Below are positions 18,001 to 24,000 of a stretch of 64,000 bases of DNA, piece by piece (position 1 is the first letter of the stretch; the number at the start of each line of letters is the position of its first letter). Source of the stretch: Candidatus Latescibacterota bacterium (GTDB taxonomy: Bacteria; Latescibacterota; UBA2968); the NCBI GenBank assembly GCA_965116885.1, contig OZ220741.1, positions 4,256,001 to 4,320,000 of the forward strand, in the 5' to 3' direction. The position numbers were made by a program.

Positions 18001-21000
18001 ATTGGAAAGACAACTATCCGGTGAAGTTGCTGGCGAACTATCTAAAGACCAGCGCACGCGGGATATCCGGGTAAAATATCGAGATATTGATCTGCGCGAA
18101 CTCCACACCATGCAAATCGAAGGAACAGATGGCGCGATCCTGACGTTGGGGGATATTGCCGAGCTCAATATTATTGAAGGTCCCCGCGAAATTTTGAGAG
18201 AAGATCAGCGTCGCGTAGGGCGCATTACGGGATATCTCACAGAAGGACGCATTTTAAGTGAAGCCGTTGCCGACGTACGCGCCACCATGCAGGAAGTGGT
18301 TGTGCCGTCGGGGTATCGCGTTGAAATTGGCGGGGAAGAGCGCGAACGTGCAGCGTCATTTGAAAGTCTCAAATTCGCACTTCTGCTTTCGATTGTGCTG
18401 GTCTATATGGTTATGGCGTCGCTATTTGAATCCACGCTCCATCCATTCACAGTCATGTTTTCCGTTCCATTAGCCGGCGTCGGCGTGATATTTGGATTCT
18501 ATCTTTTAGGTGAACCGCTCAGTGTGATGGCTTATATCGGCATCATTATGCTGGGCGGTATTGCGGTCAACGATGCGATCATTCTCGTGGATCGCATCAA
18601 CCAGCTCAGGCAAGCTAGCCTGACGTTGCGAGAAGCGATCCTACAGGGCGGTCAGGACCGCTTGCGCCCCATTATGATGACGAGTGCGACGACCATTCTC
18701 GCCCTGCTGCCCATGGCACTCGGTTTTGGCGAGGGGGCAAAATTGCGCGCACCGATGGCTATAGCCGTCATTGCTGGCCTCGTAACATCGACATTGATGA
18801 CCTTACTCGTAATACCCACCATGTATGAACTGGTTGACCGACTTCGGAGGAAATCCGCGTGACACTTGCTGGTATTGCCGTTCGGCGGCCCGTGACCACG
18901 GCCATGTTTTTTCTTGGTCTGGCTATTTTAGGCGCGATTTCTCTGGATCGATTGCCCGTTCAGATATTTCCCGAACTCGTCCGCCCGGAGGTCTTTGTCA
19001 CAGTCACTCAGCAGGGCTATTCGCCCGAACAGGTCGAGCGGGAATTGGTGATGCCCGTCGAGAGAGAGGTGGGCAAACTCGAAGGCATTGAGGCGTACGA
19101 ATCCTTTTCTCGCCAGAACAATGGCGGGGTACGCATTTCCTACGCGCCCAATACGGATATGAAATTCGCCCTGTTGCAGCTCGAAAGCCGCATCACGCGC
19201 CTGCAACCGCTTTTGCCCGAAAGAGCGCGGGTCAACATACAGCGCTTTGATTCCTCTGATCTGAGTGCTTCGGTGATGCAAATTCACGTGTTGGGCGAAG
19301 GCGATATAAACTGGTTGCGCGAATTTGCCGAGGAGAAAATCAGACCGGAATTGGAAGCGGTCGATGGCGTTGTCAACGCGCAGGTCCTGGGCGGGCAAAG
19401 GACGGCTATTGAAATTATTGTCGATCCATTGATGCTGCAGGCGCACCAGCTTTCGATGTCTGATGTTCGCAATCGCATCAATGCGTTTAATACGCGACGA
19501 CAATATCTCGGGCGAGTGTACGACGGCGACCAGGCTTATGCGGTCAGCATTCAGGGCCAATTTACAGACCTCGTGCAAATCCGCAGAGTCGTGATCAAAC
19601 CCGAATTGCCCCTGCACCTGGGCGACATTGCCAAAATTCTCTACGGCCTTCAGGAGCGTACAGATCTGCAACGCATCAATGGCAAAGCCGCCGTTGGCAT
19701 CCGCATTCAAAAAGACGATGAAGCCAATCTCATCGAACTTGCAGGAGAACTCGAAGACACCATCGAACGCGTCAACAGCGATCTTGCATACGAAAATATC
19801 CAACTCGTGATCAGCCAGAATCAGGCAGAGATTATGAACGAAGCCCTCAATTTCCTCAAACGGGCCGCTGTTGTCGGGGGATTGCTCGGGCTTTTTGTTT
19901 TGTTCTTATTTTTGAGAAATCTGCGCTTTGTCGCTGTTTTGCTCCTCGCCATTCCGTGTTCTTTGTTGCTCACATTTAATCTGATGTATATGTGGGATCT
20001 CAGTTTGAACGTGCTCTCGATGTGCGGCCTCGCGCTTGCAGTTGGCATGTTGATGGACAATGGCATTGTGGTCATGGAAAATATTTTCAAGCATTTTGAA
20101 CAGGGCAAATCTCCCAAAGAAGCCGCAAAAGCAGGAACCGATGAGATCGCACGCGCCGTTGTTGCGGCAACCGCGACTACAATTACTGTTTTTATACCCG
20201 TAGTTTTTATTCAAAGCGACTTTCAAGATATCCTGCGAGAATTCGCGCTGTCCATCGCCTTTCCTCTGCTTGCCTCTCTGCTCGTAGCCCTCACACTTGT
20301 GCCTGCCCTCGCATCGAAAACCCTTTCTCTCGCATCTCGACCACCGACGGGAACAGGCGCATTGATCGAGATGTACACGGTGTGCCTCAAAGCGGGCTTG
20401 CGCCACAGAATTAGCGTGTCACTGGGTATTGTCGGCGCGCTTGTCATCACGTTGATCATTTCTTTTTTCTTTATGCTACAACAAGATATCCGTCGTGAAG
20501 AAAGCCGTTTTACCGTCTATATCAGCATGCCCGAAGGCACGACTATTGAAGCCCTTGATGCTGTTGTTGGCGAAATTGAAAGTGCTGTGCGAGATCTCAA
20601 AGGTATAGATCGCTTTACGACCAGTATCAGCGAAACCCAGGCGAGTATCAATGTGGAACTTTTGCCCTTATCCGAACGCCCCGACCAGATTTCTGTCGAT
20701 CTCATCAAGGAAAATCTCGAAGAGTCATTCGGTGATGTCCAAAATGCGATTGTGAGTTATGAGGCCATCGCGCGCACGGGCAGGGGAGGTGGTGGGGGCC
20801 GAGGGGGAGGCGGGGGAGGCGGTATTCGGGGCACCCGTCAGGCCTCGGGCGGATTCAATCTGGAAGGGGGCGCGCCTTCGGAAATGGCTGTCATTCGCGG
20901 CTATGATTTTACGGTGCTTCAAATGCTTGCCGACGATCTGGTCTATCGCCTCGAAGAACTGGAGGAAATCGATCCGAATAGCGTAAGAGCCGATGCAGAA

Positions 21001-24000
21001 CGCGGCGCATCCGAAGTGCATGTGTTGCCCGATGAGGAAGTAATGTTTGATCGGCGATTGCAGGTGCGCCAAGTGCTCAATGCCGTATCCGACGCCAATC
21101 CGCGCGGTGCGCGATCCAATATTTCATTTCTCACGCCCGAAGGCACAGAAATCCCGATTGATGTTCGCAATGTCGAAGACCCCGAAGAAGAGGGGGAGGG
21201 GATTGCGGGATTGAGACAGACGCCGATTCTGGGTACGGGAGGGACTTACATTCCCCTTGTGGAAGTTTCGCATGTGCGCCGGGATCAGGGCAGGAGTATG
21301 ATTTTGCGCACCGATCAATCGCGGCGCGTGATTGTCTCGTACCGCTTTGCCGAAGAAATTTTGCAGTCTCAACCTCTGCTGGAAGCCTCCCGCGCCTATG
21401 TGCAAGCCGTGGTCTCTGAAATGGTGCTGCCCGAAGGGTATAGCATCGAAATGATCGAGGCAGAGGAAGAGACGATTTATTACTGGATGATGGGCATTGC
21501 CGCTCTATTGATTTTTATGATTTTGGCCTCTTTGTTTGAATCGCTTTCCGCGCCTGTGATTATTTTGTGTACGTTGCCCGCAGCAATTATTGGATCGTGC
21601 TGGGCACTGATCTTATCGGGGACGGGATTGACCTCGCAAGAAGCGCCAATGGCACTGTTGGGACTTATTGTTTTGAGCGGTATTGCCGTCAACAATGGGA
21701 TCGTGCTGATCGATGCGATTGAAACCCTTCGCCGCCGTGGGTTCAGGCGAGAACGCGCGGTGCTCACGGCGAGCCGGTCGCGCGTGCGTCCTGTTTTAAT
21801 GACTTCGGCAACCACCATTTTGGGCATGTTGCCTCTGGCACTCATATTTGGCGGCGATTACGAAATTTGGCCCCCCTTTGCGATTGTGGTAATCGGAGGG
21901 CTGGCTGTTTCAACGGTTTCCACCCTCGTATTTATTCCCGTGGTGTACATGGGAATTGATCAGACCAAAGCCTGGTTGACGGATATTGGGTGGTTCGGGA
22001 TCGTATTGGGAACAACGGCAGCCGCGGGATTGACATATTGGGTTGACGGTTATTACCAGAGTTTGTTCTGGACCTGTCTTTTGGCATTGCCAGCCTGGAT
22101 GTTGTGTATGGGTGTAATCTGGATAGTGCAACGCATTTATCGCGCGCGTATGGCTTCTCTTGCCGAGATCGGCAATATTGAACATCTCGAAATTCGCAAT
22201 CTGACCAAAATTTATGGCGCGCCGGGACGATTTAAGCACGAATGGGATCGCTTTAAGCGGCGTCATCAGCGCCTTTTAGAGCGCGGGCAGGTATTGATAG
22301 ATAAAAAGGCTATTAAGGACAGTTTGTGGTGGAAGTTACCACTTCTGGCACTTTTGATTTATTTGGAAACCTATTTTGAACAGGGAGCCTGGATATTTTT
22401 GGCAGGGCTTGCTATATGGGGCCTCGTGCATCACCTCATACTATGCGCGGCAGCTTTGCGCGATTTTCAGATTGAGAACAGATGGATATCACAAATCGCC
22501 CGATTGATTTTGCCGCTGGTCTTTATCGCCTTTATCCATTGGCGTTTGGAACTTATATCTTTGACCATCGCCACTACTGCAATCTACTTGCTCTATCGCA
22601 TCATCGGGTTTTTGGCAAATCGCGTTGGACAAGGTCGCGTTGACCCCGAGCATATACCGGGCAAATTAGGCCCTGTTAAAGGCATCGTGTACCGCGGGGC
22701 GGCAGCCGTTCCCCTGATTGGCGTTCCGCGCCCACAATTCCAGGCTCTCGGCGGTGTGAGTCTCGATATTCCGCGCGGGATGTTTGGGCTTTTGGGCCCC
22801 AATGGCGCGGGCAAGACCACGCTGATGCGGATTGTGTGTCGGGTTTTGTCGTCAAATTACGGGTCGGTACTCGCCAATGGCACAATACCGCTTACACATC
22901 GGAATATGCAGGGGGTGATTGGCTATTTGCCGCAGCACTTTGGCCTGTATCTGCACATGTCTGCGTATAATTATCTGGAATACCGCGCGCTTTTAGAGGG
23001 ATTTAAGGATGGGGTCGCGCGGCGCAAGCGCGTTCAAGAATGTCTGGAGCAGGTCAATCTGTGGGATAGGCGAGACGATCTGATTGGTTCGTTCTCTGGC
23101 GGTATGAAACAGCGCGTGGGCATTGCACAAACCCTGCTGCACTTACCGCAGATTATCGTAGTGGATGAACCGACAGCGGGATTGGACCCACTCGAGCGTA
23201 TCCGGTTCAGAAATCTGCTGGCGCGATTTAGCCAGGAAAAAATTATTATTTTTTCCACACATATTGTCGAAGATATTGCGGGCAGTTGCAACCGATTGGC
23301 CGTGCTGAATCACGGTAAGCTGCTTTATACGGGAACCCCGATTGAAATGCGCGATTTGGCGCGCGATAAGGTGTGGGAGGCTCTGCTGCCAGATCCGCGT
23401 TTTGAAGCACTGGAACGCGACCTGGATATGATTACACATGTGCGCGTGCCCGATGGGATTCGGGTGCGGTTTCTCGCCACTGATCCCATCCCAGAAGCGC
23501 GTGCTGTTGCGCCCACCCTCGAAGATGCGTATCTCTACCTTTTGCGACATGGCGATGAATACAAACAGTCTAACATGGCGTGAGTTGCTTTTCTTTGTCG
23601 GGAAAATGCACAGTCTGAGCATGAGAATCGTTTTTCACCGCAAAATGATTTTTATGTTTGGCGGGATTGTCGCGTATTACGCAATTTTGTACGCGATTGC
23701 AATCTGGCGTCCAGGTGAAGGGCTTTCAGTCGAACAAGCCCTCCATGTATTGGTTGAAGTGCCGGGCACGGTGCTTGCAATTTACCTGACGATGGATCTG
23801 GTGTCGGGGGAGAGGGATAAGGATACGCTTGAAATTCTGTTCAGCACGGCGGTCAGCCACTACGCGACCTGGGCCGTGAGAATTGTGTCGATCAGCGTTG
23901 CGCTATTTGCCACGCTGATGGCAATGAGCACGATTTCCTACTATTTTTTTGCGGAGTTTCCCTATCTCCTGGGGGGATTGAATGCATGTATCCCTGCCTT

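What a model noticed while it worked through the whole genome (the two positions that open the first line are those of the whole stretch)
18859..23583. A chimeric transporter: complete RND pump fused through extra membrane helices to an intact ABC ATPase domain
g03720 is one 1574-aa open frame that joins a full 12-helix RND (AcrB-type) transporter (aa 5-1033), several further predicted membrane helices (aa ~1040-1250) and a complete ABC nucleotide-binding domain with Walker A (GPNGAGKT), signature (FSGGM) and Walker B (IIVVDE). It lies in an operon with a second plain RND gene, an HlyD-type adaptor, a separate ABC ATPase, a 1162-aa Golvesin_C protein and a small polytopic membrane protein. A proton-driven RND pump covalently tied to an ATP-binding cassette has, as far as I could find, not been described; it suggests ATP-gated or ATP-assisted RND export.
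Evidence so far: Pfam rows ACR_tran 5-634 and 671-1033 (E 1.6e-122, 1.9e-59), ABC_tran 1299-1440 (E 1.7e-25) and operon; motifs and hydrophobic segments read from the sequence. The C-terminal 544 aa find orthologues inside open frames of 1576-1826 aa in 8 of 8 sampled genomes of the genus (76-96% id) and of 1583-1610 aa in 9 further Latescibacterota genomes (40-43% id), i.e. 17 of 40 sampled genomes of the phylum, one more on a contig end; no stops inside. ESM Atlas: six neighbouring cluster hits (e.g. 139, 143, 64 members) in which 100% of members carry both PF00873 ACR_tran and PF00005 ABC_tran; others commonest in Acidobacteriota. AF2 model of the C-terminal 544 aa from 11 orthologues (pLDDT 67, pTM 0.49) [...]
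(Added by a program. Inside this text positions count along the whole contig: contig position 4,256,001 is position 1 of the stretch shown here. "Call 12" and the like, gene names such as g00115 and contig names such as C1 are that model's own, and its searches are not shown. The text may have been shortened before it was handed on; [...] marks where a part breaks off. The agent that wrote the report below was given it as the finding of a first reader that could run no searches.)

Follow-up and report, generated by a model that had tools for sequence, protein, structure and literature searches.

The report
RND pump fused to split ABC ATPase
One conserved 1574-residue membrane protein really does join an RND-type efflux pump subunit to an ABC ATPase whose first strand is cut off from the rest by four membrane helices; the ATPase most likely drives a small ABC exporter tethered to the pump, an arrangement I could not find described in any paper.

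Summary
Window 18859-23583 (+) is one 1574-aa gene: RND permease (aa 1-1034), two extra membrane helices, then an ABC ATPase. The ATPase is split: strand beta1 with the adenine-stacking Tyr lies at aa 1109-1119, a 174-aa insert with four membrane helices follows, and the rest starts at aa 1294. An AF2 model (pLDDT 83) puts beta1 back in its normal place.

The gene sits in a closed 5.56-Mb genome and recurs in 78 of 151 sampled genomes of the phylum. It also occurs in Bacteroidota, including cultured Marivirga and Parabacteroides, and in a Calditrichaceae genome. I found no unfused form.

It always sits in one cassette: ATPase, ABC-2 permease with a dead M1-peptidase domain, (TolC-like gene in some), adaptor, plain RND, the fusion, small ABC-2-like permease.

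My reading (0.5): the fused ATPase powers the adjacent small permease, so an ABC-2 exporter is tethered to a two-paralogue RND pump for two-stage export.

Six library searches, four aimed at the fusion, found no description. This scan has reported the same family before on other DNA.

The parts
10319..11212 (+). NBD1: free ABC ATPase, 297 aa, DrrA/GldA-like, with a C-terminal accessory domain
   Evidence: Pfam ABC_tran 6e-31. NCBIfam drrA 2.5e-56, GldA 4e-52, both under their cut-offs. 45% identical to the fused ATPase. All ATPase motifs present in 7 of 7 complete orthologues.
11227..14715 (+). PermM1: ABC-2-like membrane domain (aa ~1-280) fused to a large M1-aminopeptidase-fold domain without catalytic motifs, plus Golvesin_C
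   Evidence: Pfam Golvesin_C 6e-16; Peptidase_M1 and ABC2_membrane_5 below cut-off. AF2 pLDDT 68. Foldseek best match IRAP 8cgp_B, E 6.8e-18, 678 columns, 11% identity, with ERAP1 and aminopeptidase N lower in the list. HExxH and GxMEN absent in 13 of 13 orthologues.
14733..15800 (+). Periplasmic adaptor (membrane fusion protein), 355 aa
   Evidence: HlyD_D23 2.4e-25. TIGR01730 RND_mfp 1.2e-54, above its cut-off.
15797..18862 (+). RND1: plain RND permease, 1021 aa
   Evidence: ACR_tran 2e-230 over 5-1013. Best solved relative MdtB 9lyq_B, 5.6e-92. TM4 'DN', TM10 'ND', TM11 Arg in 21 of 21 sequences (window plus 20 orthologues).
18859..23583 (+). RND2::NBD2, the fused gene, 1574 aa
18859..21960 (+). 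RND permease part, aa 1-1034
   Evidence: ACR_tran 1.1e-180. NF033617 covers 6-1034. Best solved relative MdtB 9lyq_B, 1e-71. 30% identical to RND1. TM4 D400-N401. TM10 N945-N946, where RND1 has N-D and MdtB has K-N.
20758..20868 (+). Gly/Arg-rich low-complexity insert (aa 634-670) in the periplasmic part; it splits the Pfam match
   Evidence: Read from the translation. The best ACR_tran stretch ends at 634.
21991..22164 (+). Extra membrane helices 13 and 14 (aa 1045-1066, 1069-1102)
   Evidence: Hydropathy. AF2 helices 12-33 and 36-69 of the 541-aa model, block pLDDT 86-92. W1071 and R1095 invariant in 21 of 21.
22183..22215 (+). Strand beta1 of the ATPase with the A-loop tyrosine (aa 1109-1119, K1117 and Y1119 invariant)
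   Evidence: Matches aa 3-12 of NBD1. K84 and Y86 of the fragment invariant in 51 of 51. AF2 strand 76-86. In all 50 rows shown, solved ATPase domains align from their residue 1-4 (or their domain's first residues, 34-73, in ABCG chains) onto model residue 72-77.
22216..22737 (+). 174-aa insert between beta1 and beta2: cytosolic basic helix (aa 1124-1141), four membrane helices (1149-1172, 1176-1201, 1208-1230, 1233-1257), helix 1271-1282
   Evidence: AF2 secondary structure. Hydropathy. Conserved W1129, W1158, Y1278, P1285.
22738..23358 (+). ATPase core from beta2 onward (aa 1294-1500) with Walker A, Q-loop, signature, Walker B plus Glu, D-loop and H-loop
   Evidence: Pfam ABC_tran. Motif positions. 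All motifs invariant in 51 of 51. VIA Z 27.0, rmsd 3.4, 261 aligned to 4yer_B.
23359..23583 (+). C-terminal accessory domain of the ATPase (aa 1501-1574) and stop codon
   Evidence: Aligns with aa 225-287 of NBD1. Best structural match is TM_1403 (4yer), aligned over chain residues 1-305.
23549..24283 (+). smallPerm: 244-aa six-helix ABC-2-like permease; overlaps the end of the fusion by 35 nt
   Evidence: Pfam ABC2_membrane_2 only 18.4 bits against a cut-off of 27.2. Profile match to the membrane domain of PermM1: probability 79%, E 1.6e-5, 220 columns. Present after the fusion in 20 of 20 loci. Conserved D..ERD..TLE.LF motif.

Best explanation
The gene is genuine. It encodes one subunit of a composite envelope exporter. 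Shown: the protein is a complete RND permease fold followed by two membrane helices and an ABC-2-class ATPase. The ATPase's first strand, carrying the adenine-stacking Tyr, is separated from the rest by a four-helix membrane insert. The six-gene cassette (seven with a TolC-like gene) is fixed across phyla. Inferred: the fused ATPase (NBD2) energises an ABC-2 (type V) exporter whose membrane domain is the small permease encoded right after it. It does so either as a pseudo-symmetric heterodimer with NBD1 and PermM1, or as a homodimer beside a separate NBD1/PermM1 transporter. The RND part works with its plain paralogue RND1, the adaptor and an outer-membrane channel as an MdtB2C-like heteromeric pump. 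A mixed trimer would also reconcile three-fold RND symmetry with two-fold ABC symmetry, because it carries only one or two fused ATPases. The covalent tether and the membrane insert hold the ABC-2 exporter against the RND membrane domain. The insert sits at the beta1-beta2 connection, the site that forms the 'gate helix' at the lipid-water interface of Wzm-Wzt. A substrate moved by ATP from the cytoplasm or inner leaflet to the outer leaflet or periplasm would then be handed directly to the RND pump and expelled across the outer membrane. The substrate is unknown. An amphipathic or lipid-linked molecule is my guess.
For: Reality and conservation. The genome is one closed contig with a single copy of the fusion. 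78 of 151 genomes of the phylum have it. 39 of 40 word-index hits to the linker carry both PF00873 and PF00005. 16 of 48 HMMER clusters are 1559-1590 aa long with the linker at the same place. 53 of the best 80 genome loci match most of the linker. They are mostly Bacteroidota, including cultured Marivirga tractuosa and Parabacteroides massiliensis, whose frames carry ACR_tran and ABC_tran together.

The ATPase looks active. All motifs are invariant in 51 of 51 sequences.

The ATPase is split but whole. See; VIA aligns solved ATPase domains from their first residues onto model residue 72-77 in all 50 rows shown.

The ATPase belongs with ABC-2 permeases. NCBIfam GldA and DrrA are the best ATPase models. 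Structural matches include TM_1403, NosF and ABCA/ABCG. It is 45% identical to NBD1. smallPerm follows the fusion in 20 of 20 loci of the phylum and 2 of 2 metagenome loci. smallPerm is homologous to the membrane domain of PermM1.

Complex prediction of the C-terminal 541 aa with smallPerm: verdict weak support, score 0.56, best of 3 controls 0.00. The mark was reached by 116 of 157 solved complexes and 2 of 215 mismatched pairs. At 0.60 or under it was reached by only 18 of those 157, and both passing mismatches scored 0.60 or under. The runs agree in at least 87% of contacts and the partner's pLDDT is at least 74. An ATPase with an ABC-2 permease resembles solved complexes, so this pass may come from memory.

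Tripartite RND context. The adaptor and both RND paralogues are present in 20 of 20 loci. A TolC-family gene lies inside the cassette in 9 of 20 loci; one was checked, OEP 1.2e-48. Both RND paralogues are closest to MdtB among solved structures.

Precedents from papers (passages read). MdtB2C is a heterotrimer with specialised subunits (PMC4462101). Single-membrane pumps feed trans-envelope pumps (PMC4338810 abstract). The beta1-beta2 connection of Wzt forms a gate helix at the lipid-water interface beside the membrane domains (PMC6379404).

RNA libraries. Contigs from four sponge metatranscriptome runs of three studies cover 27, 21, 27 and 28 of 30 bins of the operon and bridge three gene junctions. 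DNA carry-over is not excluded.
Against: No contact between the ATPase and smallPerm is shown. The complex score is in the weak band, and the tool gave no interface. smallPerm reaches no Pfam or NCBIfam cut-off. A second NBD1/PermM1 pair (83% and 70% identical) stands alone elsewhere in this genome, without smallPerm or RND genes. PermM1 therefore does not need NBD2 or smallPerm, which weakens the four-protein heterodimer version. A plain cytosolic linker would suffice for a tether, so the six conserved extra helices and the split of beta1 remain unexplained. The fused RND paralogue has Asn-Asn in TM10 where RND1 has Asn-Asp. This holds in 21 of 21 sequences here and in all 51 loci from other lineages where the motif was found, of 53 examined. 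That is what one would expect if its energy coupling had changed. Hand-over between the two pumps is pure inference, and the substrate is unknown.
Confidence: 0.5

Rival explanations
1. ATP acts on the RND part itself. Dimerisation or the ATP cycle of the fused ATPase would be transmitted through beta1 and the A-loop, helices 13-14 and RND TM12. It would gate or drive the conformational cycle of RND2, replacing or supplementing proton coupling.
For: The covalent link is kept in every member seen, and no unfused form was found. Only about 6 residues separate helix 14 from beta1, which carries the adenine-stacking Tyr. RND2 alone lacks the TM10 carboxylate: NN against ND in 21 of 21 pairs, and NN in all 51 loci where the motif was found, of 53 examined. 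The Lys of the AcrB-type relay is Asn in both paralogues. The six extra helices are conserved, with invariant Trp, Arg and Pro.
Against: No RND protein is known to have a coupling helix for an ABC ATPase (my own knowledge). RND2 keeps the TM4 Asp and the TM11 Arg in 21 of 21, so proton coupling is not excluded. The ATPase is of a class that works with ABC-2 permeases, and such a permease always follows it. An ATPase needs a partner ATPase, which a three-fold RND trimer does not offer naturally.
Confidence: 0.17
2. There are two independent machines. The fusion only ensures co-expression, equal stoichiometry or co-localisation of an ABC-2 exporter and an RND pump. No substrate is handed over and no energy is coupled.
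For: The gene order looks like adjacent genes that merged: ATPase-permease pair, RND block, ATPase-permease pair. The NBD1/PermM1 module can exist alone. In three genomes of the genus the only NBD1-like gene lies far from the cassette.
Against: The fusion, the split strand and the six helices are conserved from Latescibacterota to Bacteroidota at 24-37% linker identity. No split form was found. PermM1 and the fusion have almost the same distribution, 77 and 78 of 151 genomes. Accidental fusions are usually lineage-restricted (my own knowledge).
Confidence: 0.2
3. The fusion is an assembly or frameshift artefact or a pseudogene. The true genes would be a separate RND permease and a separate ATPase.
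For: 7 of 78 matches in the phylum lie in shorter frames of 435-1217 aa. One Bacteroidota locus (L081) has a stop 24 aa upstream of the match. One RNA-library contig shows a 2-nt deletion at 23381.
Against: The genome is closed. 71 of 78 matches lie in frames of 1460 aa or more, in independent assemblies. 50 of 53 loci from other lineages are open to the locus edge 500 aa upstream. RNA-library contigs of other studies cover the junction region, for example 21964-22284. Membrane topology parity is kept, with 2 + 4 helices.
Confidence: 0.01

Closest known systems
MdtABC-TolC / MuxABC-type tripartite RND pumps with two tandem RND paralogues (E. coli MdtB2C heterotrimer)
   Same: One adaptor gene is followed by two RND paralogues about 30% identical. 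Both paralogues have MdtB as the best solved relative. A TolC-family gene lies in the cassette in 9 of 20 loci. The paralogues differ in their relay residues, which recalls the division of labour reported for MdtB and MdtC (PMC4462101, passages).
   Different: One paralogue carries 540 extra residues with six helices and an ABC ATPase. The AcrB-type Lys of TM10 is Asn in both paralogues. Two ABC-2-like permeases and a second ATPase belong to the same operon. A heterotrimer was not tested.
ABC-2 / type V exporters (Wzm-Wzt, TarGH, DrrAB, NosDFY, ABCA/ABCG)
   Same: The ATPase class matches: NCBIfam GldA and DrrA as best models, and structural matches to TM_1403, NosF, ABCA7 and ABCG. The permeases have six helices and an acidic motif after helix 2. 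In Wzt the beta1-beta2 connection is extended into a 'gate helix' at the lipid-water interface next to the membrane domains (PMC6379404). That is the site of the insert here.
   Different: Here that connection is 174 aa long with four membrane helices. The ATPase is covalently joined to an RND permease. smallPerm reaches no curated family cut-off.
MacAB-TolC (tripartite ABC pump)
   Same: An ABC ATPase, a periplasmic adaptor and a TolC-type channel occur in one system.
   Different: Pfam found no FtsX or MacB_PCD domain in any of the six cassette proteins. The adaptor scores best as an RND-type adaptor (TIGR01730). RND permeases are present.
CFTR NBD1 'regulatory insertion' between beta1 and beta2
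   Same: It is an insertion at the same place in the ABC ATPase fold, which shows that the site tolerates extra sequence.
   Different: It is about 30 disordered cytosolic residues, against 174 residues with four membrane helices here.
MmpL7 (RND) with DrrABC (ABC-2) in mycobacterial lipid export
   Same: An RND protein and an ABC-2 exporter are both needed to export one lipid. That is the kind of co-operation proposed here.
   Different: They are separate proteins in a different envelope, with no adaptor or TolC-type channel. I did not check this in a paper.

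Membership tests
RND permease, AcrB/HAE-1-like (Pfam PF00873) | Full-length match to the family model: 12 membrane helices and two large periplasmic loops | tested here: met
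   ACR_tran E 1.1e-180 against a 28-bit cut-off. NF033617 aligns over 6-1034 of 1009 model positions, but at 490 bits, under NCBI's 1250-bit subfamily cut-off. Hydropathy shows the 1+6 and 1+5 helix pattern.
RND permease, AcrB/HAE-1-like | Proton relay: two Asp in TM4, Lys in TM10, Arg in TM11 (AcrB D407/D408/K940/R971; numbering recalled) | tested here: not met
   Aligned to MdtB: TM4 is D-N where MdtB has D-D, and TM10 is N-N where MdtB has K-N. The TM11 Arg is kept. RND2 has NN in 21 of 21 sequences and in all 51 loci where the motif was found, of 53 examined. RND1 has N-D in 21 of 21.
ABC ATPase (Pfam PF00005) | Walker A, Q-loop, signature, Walker B with catalytic Glu, D-loop, H-loop, A-loop aromatic residue | tested here: met
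   Positions. All are invariant in 51 of 51 aligned sequences, including Y86 of the fragment, which is Y1119.
ABC ATPase | Contiguous domain: beta1 is followed directly by beta2 and Walker A | tested here: not met
   174 residues with four membrane helices lie between them. In the model the fold is still complete.
ABC-2 / type V exporter | ATPase of the DrrA/GldA/Wzt/NosF class paired with a six-helix ABC-2 permease | tested here: inconclusive
   The ATPase class is supported. smallPerm scores 18.4 bits against a 27.2 cut-off for ABC2_membrane_2. Its profile matches the membrane domain of PermM1 at 79% probability. Pairing has only weak support: 0.56 against a best control of 0.00.
MdtB2C-type heteromeric RND pump | Two RND paralogues encoded in tandem behind one adaptor | tested here: met
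   20 of 20 loci.
MdtB2C-type heteromeric RND pump | The paralogues assemble into one heterotrimer of fixed stoichiometry | not testable with these tools
MacB-type tripartite ABC pump | FtsX-type four-helix permease with a MacB periplasmic core domain | tested here: not met
   Pfam found no FtsX or MacB_PCD match in any of the six cassette proteins.
M1 zinc aminopeptidase (for the neighbour PermM1) | HExxH-(18)-E zinc site and GxMEN exopeptidase motif | tested here: not met
   The fold matches IRAP, ERAP1 and aminopeptidase N. Both motifs are absent in 13 of 13 orthologues.

The most novel reading that the evidence does not exclude
This would be a dual-energy pump. ATP binding and hydrolysis at the split ATPase would be transmitted mechanically through beta1 and the A-loop and helices 13-14 into the membrane domain of the RND subunit that has lost its TM10 carboxylate. 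One protomer of a mixed RND trimer would then be driven or gated by ATP while the plain paralogue uses protons. It would be the first RND transporter coupled to ATP.
Probability: 0.15. Interest if true: 0.95.

Novelty: new variant of a known kind. Interest (0 to 1): 0.74.

Why it matters
RND pumps (proton-driven) and ABC pumps (ATP-driven) are taught as alternative engines of envelope export. Here they are built into one polypeptide and one operon, conserved in Latescibacterota and Bacteroidota and seen in a Calditrichaceae genome; database records also label members Gemmatimonadota and KSB1. Public records label the protein simply 'efflux RND transporter permease subunit'.

If the hand-over reading is right, this is a natural, hard-wired version of the two-stage efflux network inferred genetically for separate pumps. 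If the ATP-gating reading is right, it changes what is thought possible for RND energetics.

The ATPase split by four membrane helices is also a new structural variant of one of the best-studied protein folds. Members occur in cultured Bacteroidota (Marivirga, Draconibacterium, Maribellus, Parabacteroides), so the question can be tested at the bench.

Tried and rejected
1. Unfused or split forms.
- The word-index search among shorter proteins gave 8 hits, all fragments or a frameshift-like product.
- Of 48 HMMER clusters, 32 are shorter than 1500 aa. I read five of them: three start inside RND sequence, one is chimeric, and one (P0085, 526 aa) starts with Met.
- The two metagenome relatives of P0085 are fused genes of 1565 and 1573 aa.
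- So I found no split form, but I did not read the other 27 short clusters.
- The Atlas search of the C-terminal part gave ABC-only clusters of 551 and 480 aa. These may be fragments; this is unresolved.

2. Promoter and terminator scan of 9200-25000: counts are at chance level (22 against 15.6 +/- 3.6; 19 against 17.5 +/- 4.7). It was not used.

3. A glycosyltransferase link as a clue to the substrate.
- A two-domain glycosyltransferase lies downstream of the cassette. Its 44%-identical paralogue lies downstream of the second NBD1/PermM1 copy.
- In 0 of 10 other genomes was it found within 8 kb downstream of the cassette.
- I dropped it as evidence.

4. 'NBD1 lost from the operon' as proof that NBD2 serves PermM1.
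- In G007, G028 and G051 the cassette lacks NBD1. An 81-83% identical gene lies elsewhere, alone in G028.
- It is about equally similar to NBD1 and to the second copy NBD1', so orthology is unclear and nothing follows.

5. Structural search for the fold of the six-helix part. Both PDB searches are filled by the ATPase domain, and rows span model residues 73-535. The helices remain untested.

6. Literature. Six searches found no paper on an RND-ABC fusion or on the M1-permease. Most subscription-journal papers and TCDB are outside the library.

7. RNA evidence. Only assembled contigs were available, so strand, transcript ends and expression level cannot be told, and DNA carry-over is possible.

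Full report
**1. What is in the sequence**

Window 18859-23583 (+) is a single open frame of 1574 codons with a GTG start. It overlaps the stop of the preceding RND gene by 4 nt.

Pfam finds ACR_tran (E 1.1e-180, two stretches) and ABC_tran (aa 1299-1440, E 4.3e-25). NCBIfam's RND_permease_2 model aligns over aa 6-1034. The best ATPase models are GldA and DrrA. All of these are under the curated cut-offs.

Walker A, Q-loop, signature, Walker B and H-loop start at aa 1313, 1357, 1412, 1432 and 1466.

**2.

BLAST against the free ATPase of the same operon (NBD1, window 10319-11212) gives 45% identity over aa 1291-1562. A second small match aligns LEIRNLTKIY (aa 1110-1119) with aa 3-12 of NBD1. 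That segment is strand beta1, ending in the A-loop aromatic residue.

In an alignment of 21 orthologues, and in one of 51 sequences, the Lys and Tyr of this segment are invariant. So are several Trp, Tyr and Pro residues of the stretch that follows.

An AF2 model of the last 541 aa, built on the 51-row alignment, reached pLDDT 83.1 and pTM 0.65. In full-length numbering it shows:

| Element | Residues |
|---|---|
| Helix 13 | 1045-1066 |
| Helix 14 | 1069-1102 |
| Strand beta1 | 1109-1119 |
| Basic cytosolic helix | 1124-1141 |
| Four membrane helices | 1149-1172, 1176-1201, 1208-1230, 1233-1257 |
| Helix | 1271-1282 |
| Strand beta2, then the rest of the ATPase | from 1294 |

In all 50 rows shown by the structural aligner, solved ATPase domains align from their first residues (chain residue 1-4, or 34-73 in ABCG chains) onto model residue 72-77. 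Examples are 4yer_B (Z 27.0, rmsd 3.4, 261 aligned) and LptB 4p33_A (Z 25.7, rmsd 2.3, 228 aligned). The detached strand therefore takes its normal place in the predicted fold.

Helix parity (2 + 4) and the positive charges in the predicted cytosolic loops fit a cytoplasmic ATPase behind the cytoplasmic C-terminus of an RND protein.

**3. It is not an artefact**

- The genome is one closed contig of 5.56 Mb with a single copy of the fusion.
- The C-terminal 541 aa match at E<=1e-75 in 78 of 151 sampled genomes of the phylum, G000 included.
- Among genomes at least 90% complete and at most 5% contaminated, the count is 34 of 52.
- By family: f1 27/29, f2 17/19, f3 19/64, f5 1/1, f10 13/13, and 0/24 in the nine other families.
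- 71 of the 78 matches lie in frames of 1460 aa or more. Seven lie in shorter frames that I did not resolve.

With the linker alone (aa 1034-1300):

- 39 of 40 word-index hits carry both Pfam families. Their source names are 'efflux RND transporter permease subunit' from Latescibacterota, Gemmatimonadota and KSB1.
- HMMER over 1.84 billion representatives finds 48 clusters. Sixteen are 1559-1590 aa long with the linker at about 1020-1300.

A scan of species genomes with a linker alignment kept 80 loci.

- 53 of them match most of the linker. They are mostly Bacteroidota, including cultured Marivirga tractuosa, M. sericea, Draconibacterium mangrovi, Maribellus maritimus and Parabacteroides massiliensis. 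A Calditrichaceae genome is also among them.
- The other 27 match only the Walker A region.
- Three of the 53 were checked, and each carries ACR_tran and ABC_tran in one frame.
- 50 of the 53 are open to the locus edge 500 aa upstream. Two stop at contig ends. One (L081) is interrupted.

I found no unfused version.

**4. The cassette**

In 20 fetched loci of the phylum, spanning 33-87% identity of the RND part, the order is:

NBD1, PermM1, (TolC-like gene), adaptor, RND1, RND2::NBD2, smallPerm.

- The adaptor, RND1, the fusion and smallPerm are present in 20 of 20 loci.
- PermM1 is present in 19 of the 19 loci that reach far enough.
- A 485-516-aa gene lies between PermM1 and the adaptor in 9 of 20 loci. 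One was checked: OEP, 1.2e-48.
- The window's genome lacks that gene in the cassette but has seven OEP genes elsewhere.
- PermM1 and the fusion have almost the same distribution, 77 and 78 of 151 genomes.
- In Marivirga and Parabacteroides a PermM1 homologue lies about 10 kb upstream on the same strand.

PermM1 is an ABC-2-like membrane domain joined to a domain with the M1-aminopeptidase fold. The best match is IRAP 8cgp_B (E 6.8e-18, 678 columns, 11% identity), on a model of pLDDT 68. It has no HExxH or GxMEN motif in 13 of 13 orthologues.

smallPerm is a 244-aa six-helix protein. It is below Pfam's cut-off but homologous to the membrane domain of PermM1 (hhalign 79%, E 1.6e-5, 220 columns).

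**5. Relay residues**

Aligned to MdtB, the best solved relative of both paralogues:

| Position | MdtB | RND1 | RND2 (fused) |
|---|---|---|---|
| TM4 | Asp-Asp | Asp-Asn | Asp-Asn |
| TM10 | Lys-Asn | Asn-Asp, 21 of 21 | Asn-Asn, 21 of 21 |
| TM11 | Arg | Arg | Arg |

RND2 also has Asn-Asn in all 51 loci from other lineages where the motif was found, of 53 examined.

Neither paralogue has the AcrB-type Lys, so the classical relay is not met. RND1 has two carboxylates and RND2 has only one. This asymmetry recalls the division of labour described for MdtB2C (PMC4462101, passages read). It is equally what one would expect if RND2's coupling had changed.

**6. Which partner does the ATPase serve?**

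Several points favour the ABC-2 permease(s):

- the class of the ATPase;
- its paralogy with NBD1;
- the invariable small permease gene right after it;
- two homologous membrane domains alongside two homologous ATPases in one operon.

The site of the insert also fits. [quoted passage not shown] A membrane bundle grown from that loop would stand next to an ABC-2 membrane dimer.

The one complex job paired the C-terminal 541 aa with smallPerm, each given as an alignment.

- The verdict was weak support: score 0.56 (runs 0.58, 0.56, 0.56), best of 3 controls 0.00.
- The mark was reached by 116 of 157 solved complexes and 2 of 215 mismatches.
- At 0.60 or under it was reached by only 18 of those 157, and both passing mismatches scored 0.60 or under.
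- The runs agree in at least 87% of contacts, and the partner's pLDDT is at least 74.
- An ATPase with an ABC-2 permease resembles solved complexes, so the pass may come from memory.

Two results count against a strict four-protein heterodimer. A second NBD1/PermM1 pair (83% and 70% identical) stands alone at 1.46 Mb in this genome. Extra PermM1 copies also occur in other genomes.

**7. Mechanism proposed**

Shown: the architecture, its conservation, the intact ATPase motifs and the cassette.

Inferred: NBD2 with smallPerm forms an ABC-2 exporter, together with or beside NBD1 and PermM1. This exporter is tethered to RND2 of a mixed RND1/RND2 trimer that works with the adaptor and a TolC-type channel. 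The ABC part moves the substrate across or out of the inner membrane, and the RND part expels it across the outer membrane. This is a hard-wired form of the co-operation reviewed in PMC4338810 (abstract read).

A mixed trimer would carry one or two fused ATPases. That would resolve the mismatch between three-fold and two-fold symmetry.

My confidence is 0.5. The rivals are direct ATP action on RND2 (0.17), mere co-localisation (0.2) and artefact (0.01). The remaining share (about 0.12) is for readings I have not thought of.

**8. Habitat and expression**

The stretch is held by runs of 11 studies, most labelled sponge metagenome. Six rows are RNA libraries. Contigs of four metatranscriptome runs from three studies cover 27, 21, 27 and 28 of 30 bins of 10200-24400. 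They bridge NBD1/PermM1, RND1/RND2 (18700-19074) and NBD2/smallPerm (22807-23842). The linker is covered, for example at 21964-22284. These are assembled contigs, so they show presence in RNA libraries, not a transcript. DNA carry-over is not excluded.

**9. Novelty**

Six full-text searches found no description of an RND-ABC fusion, of the split ATPase or of the M1-permease. Four of them were aimed at the fusion or the M1-permease; two looked up the Wzt gate helix and MdtBC. The library lacks most subscription-journal papers and TCDB, and I saw no supplements.

This scan has already reported the same family on other DNA at least 16 times, including the split strand. I re-tested those points here rather than relying on them.

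The parts are known kinds of transporter. Their covalent union and the membrane-split ATPase form a new variant.

Noticed in passing
G000:C1:1462587-1466834 (locus L115:6567-10834, minus strand): A second NBD1/PermM1 pair (83% and 70% identical to the cassette's) stands alone, without adaptor, RND or smallPerm genes. An 876-aa two-domain glycosyltransferase follows it.
   Followed up: partly
window 25495-28020 (+) and 28033-29436 (+): An 841-aa GT4 + GT28-C glycosyltransferase lies downstream of the cassette. It is 44% identical over its full length to the one beside the second NBD1/PermM1 copy. It was not found within 8 kb downstream of the cassette in 0 of 10 other genomes.
   Followed up: yes
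window 20758-20868 (RND2 aa 634-670); 13315-13443 and 14587-14712 (PermM1 aa 697-739 and 1121-1162): Gly/Arg-rich low-complexity stretches (GGGGGRGGGGGGG, RGGPGGRGG) occur in presumably periplasmic parts of two cassette proteins. AF2 pLDDT is under 50 in the PermM1 stretches. Their purpose is unknown.
   Followed up: no
loci L025, L029, L030 (G007, G051, G028); L114:6001-6894: In three genomes of the genus the cassette has no NBD1 gene; in G028 FdhD directly precedes PermM1. The only NBD1-like gene (81-83% identical) lies elsewhere. In G028 it sits alone between a MacB-type permease gene and a heparinase-like gene.
   Followed up: partly
window 31885-34935 (+): A 1016-aa exporter has two cyclic-nucleotide-binding domains in front of a C39 peptidase, an ABC membrane domain and an ATPase. 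It looks like a bacteriocin-type exporter with a possible cNMP sensor.
   Followed up: no
window 5099-8440 (+): A 1113-aa protein has five lamin-tail-domain repeats and a FlgD-Ig-like end.
   Followed up: no
window 24692-25498 (+): A response regulator with an AraC-type DNA-binding domain lies just after the cassette. It overlaps the start of the glycosyltransferase gene by 4 nt.
   Followed up: no
L081 (Prolixibacteraceae genome) and G114:C46:104670-105944: In these two members the frame is interrupted, near the linker in L081 and inside it in G114. L081 has a stop 24 aa upstream of the match and a stop inside the match. G114 has a 435-aa frame starting after beta1 on a contig of at least 116 kb. 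These may be sequencing errors, decay or rare split forms.
   Followed up: no
window 23381: One RNA-library contig (run X15, depth 12.4) lacks 2 nt here, inside the C-terminal domain of the fusion. It may be a strain variant or an assembly error.
   Followed up: no
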